Assembly: GCA_031256725.1 (NCBI GenBank)
Contig: JAIRQE010000002.1
Location: 1-7,498 of the forward strand
DNA length: 7,498 bases
Direction of reading: 5' to 3'
From: Propionibacteriaceae bacterium
GTDB lineage: Bacteria; Actinomycetota; Actinomycetes; Propionibacteriales; Propionibacteriaceae
The notes below the pieces were generated by a model that saw only the letters and a program-made list of their open reading frames with translations, searched no databases and had not been told where the DNA came from. Numbering within the stretch: position 1 is the stretch's first letter; each line of letters begins with the position of its first letter. The position numbers and the translations under genes were made by a program. Of the stretch, positions 1 through 7,498 are shown one piece after another.

Positions 1-840
1 AAGATTTATGATAATGATGGCAATGTCTTGTGTGAGACTACGGTGAGGGCTGATCTGACATGGGAGTGCACACTTGAGGAGCCTCTTGATGATGGTGACT
101 ATGATTTCACTGCAACAGAGACAGACCAGGCTGGACACGAGTCTCCGAAGTCTGATTCTGTGAAGATCACGGTTGATACGGTTGCTCCGTCGAAGCCTGT
201 TGTGAACCCGACCAATGGTTCAAAGGTCAGTGGTACCGCTGATCCCGACTCCACGGTCACGGTCTACGATGAAGACGGTAAGCCAGTACCAGGATGTGTG
301 GACATTCAGCCTGACGAAACGGGTTACTTCGAGTGCACCCCAGAGGAGCCCTTGAAGCCTGGTACGGAAATCACTGTTATTGCTAAGGATGCTGCAGGGA
401 ACACCTCAGATCCAGTGGTCGTCACAGTCAATGCTATTTCGATTGTGATCGCCCACCCGACAAGGATGCCTGACCAGACTCAGGTCGTTACTGGGTTCAA
501 CTTCAACCCTGGCGAAAATGTATGTCTGGTCATCTATTCAGATCCGATGAAGGTTGGCTGTGCTGATGCTGATGCGGAAGGAAAGGTGACATTCAATGCC
601 ATCGACCTCTCTAAACTGGCTGTCGGTACACACACTGCCACCCTCACTGGCGAAGAATCCGGTGCAGTCTCCTCAACCTTCCAGGTTGTTCCGAAGCCTG
701 TCGTAAAGACCGGTGGTACCTCTTTGCCACAGGCAGCATTCCCCCTCGGGATCATGCTCCTGGCCGCAATGATGGTACTCTCCGGTGTGGTGATTCTTCC
801 TCGGGCCAGAAGGACAGAGTCGGTTAAGCAGTTCTCATGA
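1..840 (+). CDS. Cell-surface protein, C-terminal portion (5'-truncated by the window edge): tandem bacterial Ig-like domains plus a C-terminal hydrophobic anchor and sorting-signal-like tail
   Basis: Frame 1 is open from nt 1. The track's 'M' at 28 is a TTG (Leu) inside the ORF, and upstream codons read KIYDNDGNV, continuing the domain. There are two copies of an Ig-like repeat pattern (V-YD-x-DG...C...[W/F]EC-T..EEPL..G....A.D.AGN.S....V-TV), each with a Cys pair. A third beta-sandwich-like segment with two Cys follows. The tail is VVKTGG (700-717), a 23-aa hydrophobic stretch (733-801), then RARR (802-813). The stop TGA is at 838-840 and a strong terminator hairpin follows. Confidence 0.8.
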   Translation, partial: KIYDNDGNVLCETTVRADLTWECTLEEPLDDGDYDFTATETDQAGHESPKSDSVKITVDTVAPSKPVVNPTNGSKVSGTADPDSTVTVYDEDGKPVPGCVDIQPDETGYFECTPEEPLKPGTEITVIAKDAAGNTSDPVVVTVNAISIVIAHPTRMPDQTQVVTGFNFNPGENVCLVIYSDPMKVGCADADAEGKVTFNAIDLSKLAVGTHTATLTGEESGAVSSTFQVVPKPVVKTGGTSLPQAAFPLGIMLLAAMMVLSGVVILPRARRTESVKQFS

Positions 841-1165: not shown

Positions 1166-2329
1166 TCAGTACCAGCCTCGGCTGAGGAAGAAGTTCCAGG
1201 CGCCGCAGGGGGTGGTATAGCGGCCTTTGATGTACCCTAGGCCCCATTTGATCTGGGTGGCGGGGTTTGTTTGCCAGTCAGCGCCGGCAGAAGCCATCTT
1301 GGAGCCAGGAAGAGCTTGGGGGATTCCATAGGCTCCAGAGTGGCGGTTTTGGGCGTTTACACGCCATCCTGACTCCTTTTGCCAGAGGTTCACTAGGCAT
1401 TGGAAGTCTTCGTCGCTCCAGCCACGCTCCTTGACCTGCTCGTAGGCAATCGCCTGGGCAGAGCCCGGGGCTACATCAGCGAGAACGTCGGGGGGTTTCG
1501 TACCCGTTGTTTGGACTTGGGTAACGGGCTCGGTGAGGATGGTTTCTTCAAGGACCTTTTCCTCGAATAGGACGCCATCATGGAAAACCTGGTCGACCGT
1601 TTGGTTCTTGGAACCCTTGACTCCTGCTACGGAGATGGTGACCACGCCCTTGGGCTTTGCTGAATCCTTGGTATCCTCGATCTCGAAGGGGATCTCTACA
1701 TCGCGGTTGATGGTGGTGATGTCGACTCGAGTGAGTGTGATTTCTAGGCCATCAGTGAGTTCTATGCTGGCATCTGGGGTGATCAAATCATCGTCATCCC
1801 AGATAAGTCCTAGCTCCTTGAGGGCTCCTGCGGCTGTACCGAAGCCATGCACCTCGTGGGTTTCACCATCGGCGATGACCACAACATCGTGACCGGTTTC
1901 AACGGTGAGTTCCATTCCTTCGCGGGGGATGGAGGATGTATGAGGGGTTGAGACACGCAAAGAGGATTCGGTGAGGCCAAGATCGTCGATGACGCCAGCA
2001 ACAGTGGTTGAGTAGGTCCAGTACTGCCCAAGCTGACCGTTCAGGGTGAGATCAACAGGGCGTGCATAATCAACCCAGATCACCATATTGTCGGTAACAG
2101 GATCCAGGATGTCGTGGGAGATTCGGTCACGGGGGTTGATGGAGATGTCCTGCTTGGCGAGTGCTTGGGATACTGAACCGTAGACTAGGCGCTGCGAGGT
2201 GGCTTGGCCTTCAACATAGACAGTGACCTCATTTCCGAAGGCCAGGTTGATTCCTAGACCTGCGAGATTGAGCGCCAAGAGCCCAGCGATTGATAAGGCT
2301 GCCGTTTTCACGACGGACTCGTAGGACAC
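1166..2329 (-). CDS. Membrane-anchored cell-wall hydrolase with RpfB-like architecture: N-terminal TM/signal anchor, 3x DUF348 (ubiquitin-like), G5 domain, C-terminal lytic-transglycosylase-like (SLT/GH23-type) domain
   Basis: 387 aa with a GTG start at 2329 preceded by AGGAGA (plus-strand TCTCCT, 2335-2340) at 5-nt spacing. Hydrophobic segment at aa 8-30. Three DUF348-like repeats (VTVYVEGQ..., VDLTLNGQ..., VVVIADGE...). G5-like segment at about aa 200-278, ending TEPVTQVQTTGTK. The C-terminal ~100 aa contain WQKESGW (Glu319 codon = 1373-1375) and SGAYGIPQ, typical of lysozyme-like transglycosylases. Stop at 1166-1168. Confidence 0.85.
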   Translation of the reverse strand: MSYESVVKTAALSIAGLLALNLAGLGINLAFGNEVTVYVEGQATSQRLVYGSVSQALAKQDISINPRDRISHDILDPVTDNMVIWVDYARPVDLTLNGQLGQYWTYSTTVAGVIDDLGLTESSLRVSTPHTSSIPREGMELTVETGHDVVVIADGETHEVHGFGTAAGALKELGLIWDDDDLITPDASIELTDGLEITLTRVDITTINRDVEIPFEIEDTKDSAKPKGVVTISVAGVKGSKNQTVDQVFHDGVLFEEKVLEETILTEPVTQVQTTGTKPPDVLADVAPGSAQAIAYEQVKERGWSDEDFQCLVNLWQKESGWRVNAQNRHSGAYGIPQALPGSKMASAGADWQTNPATQIKWGLGYIKGRYTTPCGAWNFFLSRGWY

Positions 2330-2436: not shown

Positions 2437-2655
2437 CTAAGAGGTGAGGGGTTTCGCCGACAGGGTGTAATTCCCTGCCTCAGCAACAGCGACGGCCACA
2501 GTCTCGAAGTCTAAAGGTACGCCAGAACTGATGATCATGGTGCCATCAAGATTCACTGAAACTCCATCCACACCAGGCAACTCGCTGACCTCTTCCTGGA
2601 CATGAGCCACGCAATTCTTACAAGTCATACCCGTGACACTGTAAGTGGTTTCCAT
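2437..2655 (-). CDS. Heavy-metal-associated (HMA) domain protein, CopZ-like copper chaperone (72 aa)
   Basis: METTYSVTGMTCKNCVAHV... carries the GMTCxxC metal-binding motif (Cys codons at 2620-2622 and 2611-2613), and the length fits a ferredoxin-like HMA fold. ATG at 2653-2655 is preceded by AAGGAG (plus-strand CTCCTT, 2663-2668) at 7-nt spacing. The 106-aa version in the track starts at a TTG (2755-2757) with no RBS and adds a low-complexity leader, so I prefer the internal ATG. Confidence 0.85.
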   Translation of the reverse strand: METTYSVTGMTCKNCVAHVQEEVSELPGVDGVSVNLDGTMIISSGVPLDFETVAVAVAEAGNYTLSAKPLTS

Positions 2656-2854
2656 GGCTGTACTCCTTTGGTGATACTTCTGCTCAGAAATCCATGATAG
2701 TCGTTTGGTGGTACCGAATGTGGAAAAAGGGAGAGAAGAGCCAGAAAGAAAAGCCAAATAGGGAAAGGCAGGCAGTGAAAACCTCCACTATCACAGGGCT
2801 CAAATCAATGCAAGATCAGGACTAAAAGCGGTAGACAGTACGTGTGAAGCCTAT

Positions 2855-3140
2855 TGTGGATAACTTGTGGATAAGCGCAGGATTAAGCGGTTCGAAAGGG
2901 AAATCAGCTGGGTGGGTACACTTCCAAGTAACAGAATCCAAGGGAATGGACTTAGTGATCCACATGCTGGAATTACGCGTAAAACTTGAAGAATTGTGGA
3001 AATCCCGGCGTTTCCCCGAGTGACGCGGCGTGTCAGAAAAGTTTTCCACCGAGAATGAGGGAGTTATCCACAAGTCCTGTGGATAAGTCTGCGCTCAAGG
3101 GCAGATTCATCCACATCTTTGCACATCAGGGTGTGGACCG
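2855..3140. promoter_or_regulatory. DnaA-box cluster (oriC-like, DnaA-titration, or DnaA-controlled dnaB promoter region)
   Basis: Matches to TTATCCACA or its reverse complement TGTGGATAA. Perfect: 2855-2863, 2866-2874, 3064-3072, 3078-3086. One mismatch: TGATCCACA 2956-2964, TCATCCACA 3107-3115. Two mismatches: TGTGGAAAT 2995-3003, TTTTCCACC 3042-3050. Weak: TGTGGACCG 3132-3140. Confidence 0.8.
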
Positions 3141-3308
3141 TGGGTTAGGAATTTGGAGGGAATTCAGAGTAAGTTCTCTCACACTTGAGGTCATGGACGG
3201 CGAAGGAGAAAAACTGTCGGACCCCTGGTCGATACTTGACGATAGAGAAGAAACGATGGTGAAGGGCCGAACCCGACACCACCGTAACAGTGGAGGAAGG
3301 ACGAACTC

Positions 3309-4694
3309 ATGACATTAGCCCATGAGCTTTCGTACACCCGGGAGGACACTGTAGATCGGGTGCCCCCACAGGATGTGGCTGCTGAGCAGTCAGTCCTGGG
3401 TGCAATGCTGATGAGCAAGGATGCCATCGCAAATGTAATGGGGATCGTTAAAGGATACGATTTCTATAAACCGGCCCACGAAATGATCTTTGAAACCATT
3501 CTCAGATTGTATTCTCAGGGAGAACCAGCCGATGCCATTACAGTGGCCGCAGAATTAACAAAAAAAGGCGACATTGGTCGAGTTGGCGGCCACGGGTACA
3601 TCCACGATCTGCTTGCCACTGTCTCTATCGCAGCCAATGCAACTTACTATGCTGACATTGTTCGCGAGAAGGCCATTCTTAGACGTCTCGTGGATGCCTC
3701 CATTCGGATTGCCCAGTTAGGCTACGAAGGCAAAGGCGATGTTGATGAGATCGTCGACCTAGCCCAGCAAACGATCTTCGAGGTCTCTGATGGGGCCTCA
3801 GGTGAGGATTACCGGGTAGTCTCCGATCTGCTCCAAATCACCTGGGACGAGATGGATGCTCTGGCATCCCATGGTGGCCGATTCTCAGGTGTGCCAACAG
3901 GTTTCACAGAGCTGGATTCGTTGACCAATGGTCTTCATGCAGGCCAGATGATCATCGTTGCAGCTCGACCAGCCATCGGTAAATCCACCCTGGCTCTCGA
4001 TTTTGCTCGAAGCGCTGCCATCCAGAATCGGATGACCACTGCCGTCTTCTCACTGGAAATGAGTGCCTCCGAAATCATGATGCGTCTGCTCTCTGCGGAA
4101 GCATCAGTACCACTAGAAAACATTCGTACAGGCCGCCTTGATGACTATTGGGAGAACCTCGGGCAGGTGAGCTCCAGAATCAGTGCTGCACCACTGTTCA
4201 TCGATGATTCCCCCAACCTCACCATGATGGAGATCAGGGCAAAGGCACGCCGGCTCAAGCAACACCATGATCTCAAACTTGTCGTCATCGACTATATCCA
4301 GTTGATGACCTCGGGTCGCAAGGTCGAATCGAGACAGTTGGAGGTCTCGGAATTCTCTCGACAGATCAAACTGATGGCCAAGGAACTCGACATCCCTGTC
4401 ATCGCAATCTCACAGCTCAATCGTGGAACAGAAGCGCGTGCGGACAAGAAACCCATGCTTTCTGATCTGCGTGAATCCGGTTCTTTGGAACAGGATGCCG
4501 ACGTAGTCATCCTGCTCCATAGATCCGACTTCTACAACGAAGCAGATCGGCCAGGAGAAGCAGACCTGATTGTGGCCAAGCATAGAAACGGTCGAACGAA
4601 GACAGTACACGTCATCTTCCAAGGGCGAATGTCACGATTCGTTGATGACCCCGATTCCGGGTTCCGCGAAGCAGATGAACCCTTCGAGGAATAA
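3309..4694 (+). CDS. dnaB: Replicative DNA helicase DnaB
   Basis: 461 aa. N-terminal DnaB signature PPQDVAAEQSVLGAML. Walker A AARPAIGKST (GKST = 3978-3989). Walker B-like LVVIDYIQLM. Also ISQLNR and SDLRESGSLEQDADVVILLHR. ATG at 3309 is preceded by the purine-rich SD GGAGGAAGGA (3292-3301). TAA at 4692-4694. The protein is colinear with no intein insertion. Confidence 0.97.
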   Translation: MTLAHELSYTREDTVDRVPPQDVAAEQSVLGAMLMSKDAIANVMGIVKGYDFYKPAHEMIFETILRLYSQGEPADAITVAAELTKKGDIGRVGGHGYIHDLLATVSIAANATYYADIVREKAILRRLVDASIRIAQLGYEGKGDVDEIVDLAQQTIFEVSDGASGEDYRVVSDLLQITWDEMDALASHGGRFSGVPTGFTELDSLTNGLHAGQMIIVAARPAIGKSTLALDFARSAAIQNRMTTAVFSLEMSASEIMMRLLSAEASVPLENIRTGRLDDYWENLGQVSSRISAAPLFIDDSPNLTMMEIRAKARRLKQHHDLKLVVIDYIQLMTSGRKVESRQLEVSEFSRQIKLMAKELDIPVIAISQLNRGTEARADKKPMLSDLRESGSLEQDADVVILLHRSDFYNEADRPGEADLIVAKHRNGRTKTVHVIFQGRMSRFVDDPDSGFREADEPFEE

Positions 4695-4695
4695 A

Positions 4696-5613
4696 CTAAT
4701 ACAAGACCTTCGCTAGAGCATCCACAGCAGGAAGGCAGTGCCAGAATTGGTGGCCCAAACCGGCCACAGTCGCCGTTGTACCTCGAATCTTTCTGGCAGC
4801 TAAACGTGAGCTGAGGGAAGTGAAAGAATCCTGGGGGCACAACTTGGATACAGATCCACGCACAAGATGTGTAGTCGGCAGGGTAAGATCCTCCAGGCGT
4901 ACCCCTGTGTCATCCCCTGAAAGCATGGTGACTGAGGCTAGGAAGTCTGGGAAGATGTAGCGAATCGAGGGTTCCTTGAACTGCTGGATGCTCGCCTTTC
5001 GTACCCAGGAACTCGGATAATTGGGGGGCACAGTCTTGAGGAGACGTACATAATCTGCCGCATTATGGAAAGCCAGACGCCCAATGGAACGCATAGCCAA
5101 GGTGACTGGTTCCATGAAGGTAACCTGGGAGACCTCATAGGAGGCCTGGACCGCAGGAAGTACGGCCGCAGCAAGGGAGCAGCCCGTGGAGAAGGCTAAA
5201 ACATCGACAGTACTATCACCATCAATATCAACAGCCTCAATGGCAGCATTGAGATAGGACAGGGTGAGCAGGCCCCAGGAAGAGGGATCACCATCAAGGA
5301 GGTCCTGGCGTACCGCAGTGGAAAGAGGCTGACCATAGCGAGAGAACCCAGGAAGTTCACAGGTCACAATGATGCGACGACTATGCGCAGCCCATACCGC
5401 TAGTTTGGCTGCCTCCCACGGGCCCATGGCTTGGTTAAATCCAATAAAATGCAGGGTGATGCCCAGGGGGTTATCGGGGAAAGCGACTAAAGCATCAACG
5501 GGAGGAACCCCCCTGGGAGCAACAGTGATGCGGCGTACACGACCACGAGGTTGTTCGATAGCAGAAAGAATGGGTACTGTGATGGTTTCTAGGCGGCGCA
5601 ACGAGGTCTCCAT
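4696..5613 (-). CDS. Uncharacterised alpha/beta-hydrolase-fold protein (305 aa)
   Basis: Long ORF with normal amino-acid composition. Motif order fits the alpha/beta hydrolase fold: LHFIGFN (oxyanion-hole region, aa 54-60), nucleophile elbow VLAFSTGCS (A-F-S-T-G; Ser142 codon 5188-5190), acidic residue in PQDS (aa 260-263), and GLGHQFW (His288) near the C-terminus. ATG at 5611-5613 has only a weak or distant G-rich RBS. Stop at 4696-4698. The family call is from motif reading only, with no homology search. Confidence 0.65.
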   Translation of the reverse strand: METSLRRLETITVPILSAIEQPRGRVRRITVAPRGVPPVDALVAFPDNPLGITLHFIGFNQAMGPWEAAKLAVWAAHSRRIIVTCELPGFSRYGQPLSTAVRQDLLDGDPSSWGLLTLSYLNAAIEAVDIDGDSTVDVLAFSTGCSLAAAVLPAVQASYEVSQVTFMEPVTLAMRSIGRLAFHNAADYVRLLKTVPPNYPSSWVRKASIQQFKEPSIRYIFPDFLASVTMLSGDDTGVRLEDLTLPTTHLVRGSVSKLCPQDSFTSLSSRLAARKIRGTTATVAGLGHQFWHCLPAVDALAKVLY

Positions 5614-5774: not shown

Positions 5775-7498
5775 ATGCCTGGTACTAACCTCACACGTGT
5801 GGAAGCGGAAGAGCGAGCGGGGATGCTCGCTGTACATTCCTATGAGATCAATCTTGACCTCACGGGTGGGGGGGAATACTTTAATTCGACGACTACGATT
5901 CGTTTTTCGTGTAGCCAGCCAGGGACTTCGACCTTTGTGGATCTGATTGCTCCCGAGGTACGTCGGGTGGCACTCAATGGGGTGGAGCTTGACCCGACGG
6001 TGGTTTTTGAGGATTCACGGATCACGCTGGAAGGATTAGAGCCAGAGAACACGGTGGTCGTGGAAGCTCTGGCGGAGTACTCCCACACGGGGGAGGGGTT
6101 GCATCGGTTCACTGATCCGGTGGATTCGAAGACCTATACATATTCCCAGGCTGAGGTTGCGGATGCTCGCAGGATCTTTGCTTGCTTTGAGCAGCCTGAC
6201 CTGAAATCGCGGTTCACCTTCCATGTGGTGGCCCCAGCCGACTGGACGATCATCTCCAATCAGCCCACTCCACAGCCTCAGGTTGATGGGGATAAGGCCA
6301 CATGGGTTTTTGCTGAAACCCCCATCATGTCCACATATCTTGTTGCGATCATTGGCGGGCCTTACGCGCGGTGGATCGACTCCTATCTGTCCACTGATGG
6401 TCGTGTGGTTCCCCTGGGTCTGTTCGTGAGGGAATCCATGGCGCAGTACATGGATGCCGACGAGATCTTCGACATCACCCGTCGCGGATTCGAGTTCTTT
6501 GAATCCGCCTTCGAGGTTGCGTACCCGTATGAGAAATACGATCAGATCTTTGTTCCACAGTACAACGCGGGAGCGATGGAAAACATTGGTGCTGTGACCC
6601 TGACCGAGGATCGCTACATCTTTAGGTCCAAGCCGGTTGAGGCCCTTGTTGCGGCTCGGGCGAACACGATCCTCCATGAGCAGGCCCACATGTGGTTTGG
6701 GAACCTTGTCACGATGAAGTGGTGGAATGATCTGTGGCTCAATGAGTCCTTTGCTGAGTTCATGAGCCACCTGGCTGCTTCATCGAACACCCGCTGGACT
6801 GATGCGTGGACCGACTTCCTGGCTTCACGCAAGATGGTGGGGTACCAGCAGGATCAGCTTCCCACGACCCATCCGATTGTTGCTGAGATTCGTGACCTTG
6901 CTGATGTGTTCGTCAACTTCGACATGATCACGTACGCCAAGGGTGCATCTGTACTACGCCAACTCGTCGCCTGGGTGGGCCAGGAATCCTTCCTGAAGGG
7001 TGTCCACAACTACCTCATTAAGTACGCGGAATCCAATGCAACCCTGGAAGACTTCCTCGCCGAGGTTGGTCAGGCATCAGGGCGTGACCTGAAAGCCTGG
7101 TCGAAAGTATGGCTGGAGGAGGCTGGGGTCACAACCCTGCGTCCGTTGGTTGTCGCCAACTCGGAGGGTGTTTATGTCAAGGGCGGGATCACTCAGGAGG
7201 CTGCCAAGGTCTATACCCGTTTCAGCGAGATCCCCCACAGGGACCTTCCTGAGATTACGGTGAACCCCAGTCTGCGTCCCCACCACATTGCGGTCGCTGG
7301 CTATAACCTCATTGACAAGGGTTTGGTACGTTCGTGGTCCTATGAGGTCGATATTGCTGGTGAGTCCACAGATATTGATGAGTTGACTGGGCAGGTGATC
7401 CCAGACCTGTTGATCATCAATGATGGAGACCTCACCTATGCGAAGATCCGACTGGATAAGGGAAGTCAGGCGGCTTTGCCTCGGCTGATTACTAAGAT
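5775..7498 (+). CDS. pepN: Aminopeptidase N (M1 family zinc metallopeptidase), N-terminal ~574 aa, 3'-truncated by the window edge
   Basis: Absent from the supplied ORF track because it has no stop in the window. Frame 3 is open from 5739 to 7498. ATG at 5775 is the first start after the in-frame TAG at 5736-5738, with GAAGGA (5764-5769) 5 nt upstream. Translation begins MPGTNLTRVEAEERAGML. It contains the exopeptidase motif GAMEN (6570-6584) and the zinc site HEQAH (6675-6689) followed 18 residues later by the Glu of NESFAE (6744-6746). Confidence 0.93.
   Translation, partial: MPGTNLTRVEAEERAGMLAVHSYEINLDLTGGGEYFNSTTTIRFSCSQPGTSTFVDLIAPEVRRVALNGVELDPTVVFEDSRITLEGLEPENTVVVEALAEYSHTGEGLHRFTDPVDSKTYTYSQAEVADARRIFACFEQPDLKSRFTFHVVAPADWTIISNQPTPQPQVDGDKATWVFAETPIMSTYLVAIIGGPYARWIDSYLSTDGRVVPLGLFVRESMAQYMDADEIFDITRRGFEFFESAFEVAYPYEKYDQIFVPQYNAGAMENIGAVTLTEDRYIFRSKPVEALVAARANTILHEQAHMWFGNLVTMKWWNDLWLNESFAEFMSHLAASSNTRWTDAWTDFLASRKMVGYQQDQLPTTHPIVAEIRDLADVFVNFDMITYAKGASVLRQLVAWVGQESFLKGVHNYLIKYAESNATLEDFLAEVGQASGRDLKAWSKVWLEEAGVTTLRPLVVANSEGVYVKGGITQEAAKVYTRFSEIPHRDLPEITVNPSLRPHHIAVAGYNLIDKGLVRSWSYEVDIAGESTDIDELTGQVIPDLLIINDGDLTYAKIRLDKGSQAALPRLITK

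What the first reader, a model, noticed from the sequence alone, without database searches (positions are those of the whole stretch)
2855..3140. Dense cluster of consensus DnaA boxes directly upstream of the replicative helicase gene
Four perfect 9-mers matching TTATCCACA/TGTGGATAA lie within about 290 bp of non-coding DNA, starting about 170 bp upstream of dnaB. They are accompanied by two one-mismatch boxes and three weaker ones. With equal base frequencies a perfect box in either orientation is expected only about once per 131 kb (4^9/2), so four in 232 bp is not chance. Clusters of this density are known from oriC, from DnaA-titration or reactivation loci (E. coli datA/DARS, the B. subtilis DnaA-box clusters) and from DnaA-autoregulated promoters. 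In actinobacteria oriC is normally placed between dnaA and dnaN, so a cluster abutting dnaB is not the textbook arrangement. It could be (a) a displaced or second origin, (b) a DnaA sink or chromosome-organising cluster, or (c) direct DnaA control of helicase supply. I cannot tell which from this window. I found no convincing DnaA-trio array or strongly AT-rich unwinding element.
Basis: partly seen in the sequence, partly recalled or inferred. Interest (0 to 1): 0.75.

Follow-up and report, generated by a model that had tools for sequence, protein, structure and literature searches.

The report
DnaA-box-controlled promoter of helicase gene dnaB
The cluster of DnaA boxes is real and conserved, but it is most likely not a replication origin: it is the DnaA-binding control region of the promoter of the helicase gene dnaB, an arrangement already shown experimentally in mycobacteria.

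Summary
Four perfect TTATCCACA boxes lie at 2855, 2866, 3064 and 3078, against 0.06 expected. One-mismatch boxes lie at 2956 and 3107, and weaker ones at 2995, 3042 and 3132. All sit in the 653-bp copZ-dnaB spacer.

The window comes from an uncultured Propionibacteriaceae bacterium; the nearest MAG has DnaB 90% identical. In 80 species of Propionibacteriales, perfect TTRTCCACA boxes are about 125-fold enriched in the 750 bp upstream of dnaB. They follow dnaB whatever the neighbouring gene is.

55 of 81 loci share one layout. An inverted box pair is followed, in 49 of them, 28-30 nt later by a TAnnnT -10 hexamer. In the window this is 3107-3115 / 3132-3140, then TAAGTT at 3170. The perfect boxes lie further upstream of this core.

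I found no AT-rich unwinding element, no DnaA-trios, no dnaA gene nearby and no GC-skew switch, so the origin reading is unsupported.

Published data show that the spacer upstream of dnaB is the strongest DnaA ChIP peak in M. smegmatis and a top in-vitro site in M. tuberculosis. A DnaA mutant that binds it less also expresses less dnaB.

Verdict: a DnaA-regulated dnaB promoter, a new member of a known kind. An added DnaA-sink role remains open.

The parts
2437..2655 (-). copZ-like heavy-metal-associated gene. It is the divergent left neighbour and not part of the dnaB module.
   Evidence: Pfam HMA, E=9e-11. Called as a 72-aa gene on the matching Logan contig. ATG with AAGGAG RBS and MTCxxC motif read.
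2719..2727 (-). One-mismatch DnaA box (TTTTCCACA), the outermost. Whether it belongs to the module is uncertain.
2855..2874 (-). Distal tandem of two perfect DnaA boxes (TGTGGATAActTGTGGATAA), with starts 11 bp apart.
   Evidence: The same tandem is present in the nearest MAG, L002, at 9216-9234, and in L084. Minus-strand boxes 225-260 bp upstream of the promoter pair recur order-wide: 33 such boxes among 53 loci.
2956..2964 (+). One-mismatch DnaA box (TGATCCACA).
   Evidence: The core ATCCACATG-TGGAATT block is conserved between the window and L002.
2995..3003 (-). Weak DnaA-box-like site with 2 mismatches.
3042..3050 (+). Weak DnaA-box-like site with 2 mismatches.
3064..3086 (.). Perfect inverted pair TTATCCACA-N5-TGTGGATAA, a 23-bp palindrome. 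Proposed high-affinity DnaA anchor.
   Evidence: It is the best-conserved block in the four-way alignment with L002, L083 and L084. It has the same sequence form as the order-wide consensus GTTRTCCACA-N5-TGTGGAYAAC.
3107..3140 (.). Promoter-proximal inverted pair of weaker boxes: TCATCCACA (3107-3115), a 16-bp spacer, then TGTGGACCG (3132-3140).
   Evidence: It occupies the canonical position, ending 29 nt before the -10. L002 has the same pair with the canonical 5-bp spacer.
3145..3150 (+). Predicted weak -35-like hexamer TTAGGA of promoter P1.
   Evidence: Conserved in the window, L002 and L083. Prediction only.
3170..3175 (+). Predicted -10 hexamer TAAGTT (TAnnnT) of promoter P1. The inferred TSS is near 3182.
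   Evidence: TAnnnT starts 28-30 nt after the right-hand box in 49 of 55 loci, against a background of 0.39 per offset. The aligned hexamers are GTAAGTT, GTACGTT and GTACCTT in L002, L083 and L084.
3215..3236 (+). Second promoter P2, RecA-NDp-like (PafBC-type, DNA-damage-inducible): TGTCGGAC-N8-GATACT. It has one mismatch, at the first base of the -10. A 2-mismatch LexA-box-like sequence overlaps it at 3217-3232.
   Evidence: The motif TGTC[AG]G-N10-TAnnnT lies upstream of dnaB in 53 of 81 loci, at 1.88/kb against 0.008/kb elsewhere. The published consensus is tTGTCRgtg-8nt-TannnT (PMC5656591). SOS-like match.
3292..3300 (+). Ribosome-binding site GGAGGAAGG of dnaB.
3309..4694 (+). dnaB, the replicative helicase and the regulated gene.
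   Evidence: Pfam DnaB_C E=5e-103 and DnaB N-terminal domain E=2e-33.

Best explanation
The boxes form the DnaA-binding control region of the dnaB promoter.

Proposed anatomy. A weak-(-35) promoter P1 (TTAGGA 3145-3150, TAAGTT 3170-3175, TSS near 3182) is directly flanked upstream by an inverted pair of weaker DnaA boxes (3107-3115 and 3132-3140). The right-hand box ends about 5 bp before the -35 region, so the pair covers roughly -75 to -42. Twenty bp further upstream lies a perfect palindromic pair (3064-3086). More boxes follow at 2956 and at 2855-2874.

Proposed mechanism. DnaA occupies the perfect boxes at all times. As active DnaA accumulates, binding spreads cooperatively onto the weaker promoter-proximal pair. 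From there DnaA contacts RNA polymerase and stimulates dnaB transcription. Helicase supply would thus be coupled to initiation potential.

A second promoter, P2, is of the RecA-NDp (PafBC) type. It lies downstream at 3215-3236 and would add DNA-damage induction.

What is shown: the boxes, their enrichment, their conservation and their fixed spacing to a -10-like hexamer.

What is shown only in other organisms: DnaA binding at the orthologous spacer, and the positive correlation with dnaB expression.

What is inferred: DnaA binding in this organism, the promoter assignment, activation rather than repression, and the anchor-and-spread mechanism.
For: 1. The boxes are real and far above chance.

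2. Among 80 species-level genomes of Propionibacteriales, perfect TTRTCCACA boxes occur 93 times in the 59.5 kb lying 750 bp or less upstream of dnaB. They occur 18 times in the remaining 1.43 Mb. That is 1.56/kb against 0.0126/kb. 57 of 80 loci have at least one perfect box within 700 bp upstream of dnaB.

3. 58 of 81 loci have an inverted pair with box starts 13-15 bp apart. The aligned consensus is GTTRTCCACA-N5-TGTGGAYAAC. In 49 of the 55 aligned loci, TAnnnT starts 28-30 nt after the pair; in 6 more it starts at 38-39 nt. The background is 0.39 per offset.

4. The left neighbour varies: a divergent CopZ/CopA-type gene in Propionibacteriaceae, and an ABC transporter or MatE gene in Nocardioides. 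The boxes therefore travel with dnaB.

5. The closest relatives (L002 at 90%, L083 at 87%, L084 at 76% DnaB identity) keep the boxes and the -10 while the sequence between them has diverged and carries indels.

6. Single boxes elsewhere in the module are conserved only over the 9-10-mer. This is expected for monomeric DnaA recognition.

7. Published data (Hicks et al. 2020, PMC7738170). M. tuberculosis DnaA pulled down five top regions in vitro, including the one upstream of dnaB; the most enriched windows lie 195-220 nt upstream of dnaB. In M. smegmatis ChIP-seq the dnaB-rplI spacer is the strongest peak, at 225-fold against 44-fold for oriC. DnaA I282T binds the dnaB promoter less, and dnaB (Rv0058) falls by log2 -0.70 (padj 1e-46). 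The authors cite Hottes et al. 2005 for DnaA acting upstream of dnaB in Caulobacter.
Against: There is no binding or transcription-start data for this organism or any Propionibacteriales member.

The E. coli-type sigma-70 scan finds no promoter in 2600-3350. P1 therefore rests on conservation alone, and its -35 is poor.

In the window the promoter-adjacent pair is degenerate and its spacer is 16 bp instead of 5.

The four perfect boxes lie 84-315 bp upstream of the -10. That is further than a simple activator needs, and there are more boxes than regulation alone requires.

Boxes next to a -35 could repress as easily as activate; I recall E. coli dnaA and nrdAB as examples of both outcomes.

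I could not fetch a mycobacterial sequence, so homology of the site itself to the mycobacterial one is inferred from gene, phylum, motif and distance. It was not aligned.
Confidence: 0.7

Rival explanations
1. DnaA sink or titration locus, of the datA or B. subtilis DnaA-box-cluster type. On this reading the main role of the cluster is to hold DnaA away from oriC, or to modulate its nucleotide state, and so set initiation timing. Proximity to dnaB would be incidental or secondary. This could coexist with promoter control.
For: The window has four perfect boxes plus five to six weaker ones, more than a promoter needs. It sits at the high end of its order: only 1 of 80 relatives also has 4 perfect boxes. 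In M. smegmatis the dnaB-rplI spacer binds more DnaA than oriC, at 225-fold against 44-fold. Deleting the six non-oriC clusters in B. subtilis causes early initiation (PMC3245932 abstract). Relatives show boxes at about 65-bp intervals over some 250 bp, which suggests a higher-order DnaA complex.
Against: The strict 28-30 nt spacing between the pair and a -10 hexamer in 49 of 55 loci points to a transcriptional role. In M. tuberculosis, lower occupancy goes with lower dnaB mRNA.
Confidence: 0.2
2. A displaced, second or bipartite chromosomal origin (oriC) placed next to dnaB.
For: Only the density of consensus DnaA boxes. The spacer is also slightly less GC-rich than its surroundings: GC is 0.44-0.47 in 200-bp windows against about 0.53.
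Against: The most AT-rich 20-bp stretch of the spacer is 70% AT, while coding DNA in the same window reaches 80%. No run of three or more DnaA-trios exists on either strand. GC skew is positive on both sides (+0.07 left, +0.05 right), so there is no switch, though this is a weak test on 7.5 kb. No DnaA signature was found within 10 kb of dnaB in any of 81 related loci. In two complete relatives, dnaB lies 267 kb and 124 kb from the end of the record. The same module is present in dozens of species and is aligned to a promoter.
Confidence: 0.03
3. The palindromes are operators of a dimeric transcription factor other than DnaA, and merely resemble DnaA boxes.
For: The conserved pair is an extended palindrome, GTTRTCCACAGG-n-CCTGTGGAYAAC, with some conservation inside the spacer. 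That is typical of dimeric helix-turn-helix operators.
Against: Most other sites in the module are single, non-palindromic 9-mers that match the DnaA-box consensus exactly. Palindromic pairs of DnaA-box-like sequences are bound by DnaA in M. tuberculosis at Rv0010c-Rv0011c. The orthologous mycobacterial spacer is a proven DnaA site.
Confidence: 0.05

Closest known systems
DnaA-binding site upstream of dnaB (Rv0057 / rplI-dnaB spacer) in Mycobacterium tuberculosis and M. smegmatis (Hicks et al. 2020, PMC7738170)
   Same: Same phylum, same downstream gene and the same kind of element. The distance is similar: the top IDAP-seq windows lie 195-220 nt upstream of dnaB, and here the perfect pair lies 223-245 nt upstream. 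Lower DnaA occupancy goes with lower dnaB mRNA, which fits activation.
   Different: The left neighbour differs: rplI/Rv0057 there, divergent copZ here. The box sequences and their layout in mycobacteria were not available to me, so homology of the site itself is not shown. No experiments exist for Propionibacteriales.
DnaA regulon of Caulobacter crescentus, which includes dnaB (Hottes, Shapiro and McAdams 2005, as cited in PMC7738170)
   Same: DnaA acts upstream of the replicative helicase gene, linking the initiator to replisome supply.
   Different: A distant phylum, so this is probably convergent or very ancient. I did not read that paper and know nothing of its box layout.
DnaA-box clusters outside oriC in Bacillus subtilis (Ishikawa 2007, PMC2533591; Okumura 2012, PMC3245932)
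   Same: These are intergenic clusters of several consensus boxes. Some regulate neighbouring genes, and together they restrain initiation (abstracts).
   Different: Their neighbouring genes differ. No effect on initiation has been tested for the dnaB cluster.
E. coli datA and DARS loci
   Same: Non-origin clusters of DnaA boxes (abstracts).
   Different: They change the nucleotide state of DnaA with the help of IHF or Fis (abstracts). They are not promoters of replication genes (my own knowledge). Nothing here indicates such an activity.
RecA-NDp / PafBC-dependent DNA-damage promoters of Actinobacteria (Gamulin 2004 motif as quoted in PMC5656591; PafBC work in PMC6789036 and PMC8223512)
   Same: The motif TGTCRG-N10-TAnnnT lies between the DnaA-box promoter and dnaB in 53 of 81 loci. 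M. tuberculosis dnaB is DNA-damage-inducible.
   Different: In the window the -10 reads GATACT, one mismatch. This element is separate from the DnaA boxes that the finding is about.

Membership tests
DnaA-regulated promoter of a replication gene (dnaB-upstream DnaA site of Actinobacteria) | Consensus DnaA boxes (TTRTCCACA) clustered upstream of the gene, above chance | tested here: met
   4 perfect boxes against 0.06 expected, and 8 sites with at most one mismatch against 1.35 expected.
DnaA-regulated promoter of a replication gene (dnaB-upstream DnaA site of Actinobacteria) | Boxes conserved in orthologous dnaB upstream regions, independent of the neighbouring gene | tested here: met
   About 125-fold enrichment in 80 species. 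Neighbours differ. Boxes are kept in close relatives despite diverged flanks.
DnaA-regulated promoter of a replication gene (dnaB-upstream DnaA site of Actinobacteria) | Boxes positioned in fixed register with core promoter elements | tested here: met
   TAnnnT lies 28-30 nt after the right box in 49 of 55 loci, and at 29 nt in the window. The promoter itself is predicted, not mapped.
DnaA-regulated promoter of a replication gene (dnaB-upstream DnaA site of Actinobacteria) | DnaA protein binds the site in vitro or in vivo | not testable with these tools
   Shown only for the mycobacterial counterpart.
DnaA-regulated promoter of a replication gene (dnaB-upstream DnaA site of Actinobacteria) | dnaB transcription changes with DnaA occupancy | not testable with these tools
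   In M. tuberculosis, DnaA I282T binds less and Rv0058 falls by log2 -0.70.
Chromosomal replication origin (oriC) | AT-rich DNA unwinding element next to the boxes | tested here: not met
   The spacer maximum is 70% AT over 20 bp, which coding DNA of the same window exceeds.
Chromosomal replication origin (oriC) | DnaA-trio array (repeated 5'-TAR-3' triplets) beside a box | tested here: not met
   There is no run of three or more, and no stretch with 3 of 5, on either strand of the spacer.
Chromosomal replication origin (oriC) | Location at the dnaA-dnaN region, as is usual in Actinobacteria | tested here: not met
   The window genes are a surface protein, an RpfB-like gene, copZ, dnaB, an unknown gene and a peptidase M1 gene. 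No DnaA signature lies within 10 kb of dnaB in 81 loci.
Chromosomal replication origin (oriC) | GC-skew sign switch at the site | tested here: inconclusive
   Window skew is positive on both sides, but 7.5 kb is too short. Skew in the relatives is too weak to read.
Chromosomal replication origin (oriC) | Autonomous replication, or a marker-frequency peak | not testable with these tools
   Experiment needed.
DnaA titration or inactivation locus (datA / B. subtilis DBC type) | Several high-affinity boxes in a non-origin intergenic region | tested here: met
DnaA titration or inactivation locus (datA / B. subtilis DBC type) | Deletion or amplification alters initiation timing or the DnaA-ATP level | not testable with these tools
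   Experiment needed.

The most novel reading that the evidence does not exclude
The dnaB-upstream array may be more than a promoter operator. It could be the main non-origin DnaA reservoir of actinobacterial chromosomes, a functional analogue of datA or the B. subtilis clusters in a phylum where I know of no described equivalent. On this reading it sets initiation timing and at the same time reports DnaA status to the helicase gene. Three things hint at a large, ordered DnaA complex: the excess of perfect boxes in this window, the roughly 65-bp periodic boxes in relatives, and the fact that the orthologous spacer out-binds oriC in M. smegmatis ChIP-seq.
Probability: 0.2. Interest if true: 0.6.

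Novelty: new member of a known kind. Interest (0 to 1): 0.33.

Why it matters
DnaA acts both as the replication initiator and as a transcription factor. A conserved link from DnaA to the gene for the helicase it later helps load would be a simple feed-forward coupling of initiation potential to replisome supply.

The comparison made here extends a single experimental observation in mycobacteria to a whole second actinobacterial order. It also gives the element a defined anatomy: an inverted box pair abutting a weak -35, upstream anchor boxes, and a downstream DNA-damage promoter. Each part can be mutated and tested directly in a cultivable relative such as Cutibacterium or Propionibacterium.

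For genome annotation, this is a warning. Dense DnaA-box clusters next to dnaB in Actinobacteria should not be called origins by box-counting tools.

Tried and rejected
- **Rfam.** A scan of the whole window at E<=1 found nothing. The 5' UTR 3182-3320 folds no better than shuffles, z=-0.67. A structured leader RNA therefore does not explain the conserved blocks.
- **Promoter and terminator scan.** The E. coli-type scan of 2600-3350 found no sites. I do not treat this as evidence against a promoter, because, as far as I know, actinobacterial promoters usually show only TAnnnT.
- **GC skew in relatives.** Over 59 loci with long flanks it was uninformative: means of +0.006 and 0.000 with mixed signs.
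- **tRNA scan.** None found.
- **Full-genome placement.** The exact-protein look-up returned only one 7.3-kb contig.
- **Pairwise alignment.** The first MAFFT alignment with L002 misaligned the perfect pair and the RecA-NDp motif. I corrected this by anchoring on motifs.
- **Which pair is canonical.** I first took the perfect pair 3064-3086 as the counterpart of the order-wide promoter pair. The fixed 28-30 nt distance to the -10 shows instead that the weaker pair 3107-3140 holds that position.
- **ORFs in the spacer.** The ORFs 2822-3073(-) and 2986-3312(+) have no Pfam hits. They cross regions with non-triplet indels in relatives, so I rejected them as genes.
- **Regulation of copZ.** Rejected as the main role of the boxes, because the module persists where the neighbour is an ABC transporter or MatE gene.

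Full report
**Observation.** The window holds four exact TTATCCACA/TGTGGATAA 9-mers: 2855-2863(-), 2866-2874(-), 3064-3072(+) and 3078-3086(-). Dinucleotide-preserving shuffles give 0.06 on average, and none of 200 reaches four. Allowing one mismatch gives eight sites against 1.35 expected. These include 2956 (TGATCCACA) and 3107 (TCATCCACA) inside the stated interval, and 2719 outside it. Two-mismatch sites lie at 2995 and 3042, and a further weak box, TGTGGACCG, lies at 3132-3140.

The flanking genes are a copZ-like HMA gene on the minus strand and dnaB on the plus strand. The true copZ start is ATG 2655 and dnaB starts at 3309. The spacer is therefore 653 bp, 2656-3308.

**Origin of the window.** The exact DnaB protein is on record only on a 7.3-kb Logan contig. 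The nearest genome is a Propionibacteriaceae MAG (isolate Lab288P4bin17), with DnaB 90% identical. The next 79 hits are all annotated to Propionibacteriales taxa (Propionibacteriaceae, Nocardioidaceae) or only to a broader rank such as Actinomycetota.

**Conservation.** I scanned the 80 species-level loci for perfect TTRTCCACA boxes. There are 93 in the 59.5 kb lying 750 bp or less upstream of dnaB. There are 18 in the remaining 1.43 Mb, a roughly 125-fold enrichment. 57 of 80 loci have at least one perfect box within 700 bp upstream of dnaB.

The left neighbour is not constant. It is a divergent HMA/P-type ATPase in Propionicimonas and Cutibacterium, an HMA gene in the nearest MAG, and an ABC transporter or MatE gene in Nocardioides. 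The boxes therefore belong to dnaB.

**Anatomy.**
- 58 of 81 loci carry an inverted pair with box starts 13-15 bp apart.
- Aligned on that pair, 55 loci give the consensus GTTRTCCACA-N5-TGTGGAYAAC. A poorly conserved -35 region and a conserved gTAnnnT follow.
- TAnnnT starts 28-30 nt after the right box in 49 of 55 loci and at 38-39 nt in six more. The background is 0.39 occurrences per offset.
- The right box therefore ends about 5 bp upstream of the -35 position of a promoter with a weak -35.
- In the window this canonical position is held by the weaker pair TCATCCACA (3107-3115) and TGTGGACCG (3132-3140). Then come TTAGGA (3145-3150) and TAAGTT (3170-3175), the latter at offset 29.
- The nearest MAG has the same pair with the canonical 5-bp spacer. 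The window, L083 and L084 have 16-17 bp, about one helical turn more.
- The perfect pair 3064-3086 lies 43 bp upstream of the proximal left box, an arrangement shared with L083 (87%) and L084 (76%). It is the best-conserved block of the four-way alignment.
- The distal tandem 2855-2874 is present in L002 and L084. It corresponds to minus-strand boxes seen 225-260 bp upstream of the pair across the order.
- Single boxes are conserved only over the 9-10-mer, as expected for DnaA.

**Origin reading.** I found no support for it.
- The spacer has no AT-rich element. Its richest 20 bp is 70% AT, and coding DNA in the window reaches 80%. It has no DnaA-trio run on either strand.
- GC skew is positive on both sides of the spacer.
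- A DnaA-signature scan of six-frame translations found no dnaA within 10 kb of dnaB in any of 81 loci.
- In two complete relatives, dnaB lies 267 kb and 124 kb from the record end.
- A module that is aligned with a promoter in dozens of species is not a displaced origin.

**Literature.** Hicks et al. 2020 (PMC7738170) pulled down M. tuberculosis genomic DNA with DnaA and found five top regions: oriC, rpmH-dnaA, Rv0010c-Rv0011c, Rv3843c-RVnc0040 and Rv0057 'upstream of dnaB'. M. smegmatis ChIP-seq gave homologues of the same five regions.

Their supplements show three further points:
- The top IDAP-seq windows lie 195-220 nt upstream of dnaB.
- The dnaB-rplI peak is the strongest in M. smegmatis, at 225-fold against 44-fold for oriC.
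- DnaA I282T, which binds the dnaB promoter less, lowers Rv0058 by log2 -0.70 (padj 1e-46).

The authors note agreement with Caulobacter (Hottes et al. 2005). They also show that a palindrome of two box-like sequences at Rv0010c-Rv0011c is bound by DnaA. DnaA binding upstream of dnaB is therefore a known feature of Actinobacteria. What I add is its conservation and anatomy in a second order.

**Mechanism.** I propose that DnaA sits permanently on the perfect boxes. At high active-DnaA levels it extends onto the weaker promoter-proximal pair and activates P1. Helicase synthesis would then follow initiation potential. Activation rather than repression is inferred from two things: the position of the boxes upstream of a weak -35, and the mycobacterial correlation. 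The direction is less certain than the binding.

A sink function is not excluded. This window has more perfect boxes than 79 of 80 relatives, and the mycobacterial site out-binds oriC.

**Other elements in the spacer.** Between P1 and dnaB, 53 of 81 loci carry TGTC[AG]G-N10-TAnnnT, at 1.88/kb against 0.008/kb elsewhere. This matches the published RecA-NDp consensus tTGTCRgtg-8nt-TannnT (PMC5656591), which PafBC binds. The window has it at 3215-3236 with one mismatch.

LexA-type SOS boxes with at most one mismatch are also enriched upstream of dnaB in some relatives: 6 in 28 kb against 9 in 1.47 Mb. The window has only a two-mismatch match, at 3217-3232. M. tuberculosis dnaB is DNA-damage-inducible.

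These elements, together with the DnaA module, account for the unusual length of the spacer. No Rfam family and no stable leader fold were found.

**Verdict.** The element is real, functional-looking and conserved. It is best read as the DnaA-controlled promoter region of dnaB. It is a new member of a known kind, of moderate-to-low surprise. The sink question stays open, and the origin reading is rejected.

Noticed in passing
window 3215-3236; loci L002-L081, 40-200 bp upstream of dnaB: A RecA-NDp (PafBC-type DNA-damage) promoter motif, TGTC[AG]G-N10-TAnnnT, lies between the DnaA-box promoter and dnaB in 53 of 81 loci. That is about 230-fold above the rest of the loci. The window copy reads TGTCGGAC-N8-GATACT, one mismatch. 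dnaB therefore seems to have tandem promoters, one cell-cycle and one DNA-damage.
   Followed up: partly
window 3217-3232; e.g. L024 -74, L048 -85, L071 -115 relative to the dnaB start: LexA SOS boxes (TCGAAC-N4-GTTCGA) with at most one mismatch are enriched upstream of dnaB in some relatives: 6 in 28 kb against 9 in 1.47 Mb. The window has only a 2-mismatch match, which overlaps the RecA-NDp-like motif and is not significant on its own.
   Followed up: partly
loci such as L036, L063, L076, L044; positions 0, -65, -130 and -197 relative to the promoter pair: In Nocardioides-type loci (L036, L063, L076, L044), plus-strand boxes recur at about 65-bp intervals upstream of the pair. 36 of 55 loci have the -65 box. 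A palindromic TTTGTCGACAAA sits at about -197. The window lacks this spacing. The periodicity suggests a wrapped or looped DnaA complex, or a second factor.
   Followed up: partly
window 3116-3131 versus L002 9680-9684: The spacer of the promoter-proximal box pair is 16-17 bp in the window, L083 and L084. It is 5 bp in the nearest MAG and across the order. The difference is about one helical turn, so the two boxes stay on the same face of the helix.
   Followed up: partly
whole window versus L002: The window is about 53% GC, while the nearest MAG locus is 61% GC, although DnaB is 90% identical. The relatives are mostly 63-73% GC (range 61-74%). This suggests marked AT drift in this lineage. 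It may also explain why its boxes are all the A-form TTATCCACA rather than TTGTCCACA.
   Followed up: no
L002 about 9740-9980: The nearest MAG has roughly 240 bp of extra sequence between the predicted P1 -10 and the RecA-NDp motif that the window lacks. The leader length is therefore very plastic while the motifs are kept.
   Followed up: no
window 4696-5613 (-): A 305-aa ORF converges on dnaB with a 1-bp gap to its stop codon. It is also a called gene on the Logan contig but has no Pfam hit.
   Followed up: no
window 28-840 (+), 1166-2329 (-), 5775-7498 (+): Other genes in the window. The first is a fragment of a surface protein with bacterial Ig-like domains (Big_6, Big_13). The second is an RpfB-like protein (DUF348-G5-SLT). 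The third is an M1-family aminopeptidase that runs off the right end. In other Propionibacteriaceae a copA P-type ATPase sits divergent to dnaB; the window and L002 keep only the small copZ-like gene.
   Followed up: partly
window 1-197 and 7471-7498: The window extends 197 bp to the left and 28 bp to the right beyond the only public contig found to encode the identical DnaB. It was therefore taken from a different assembly of the same organism.
   Followed up: no
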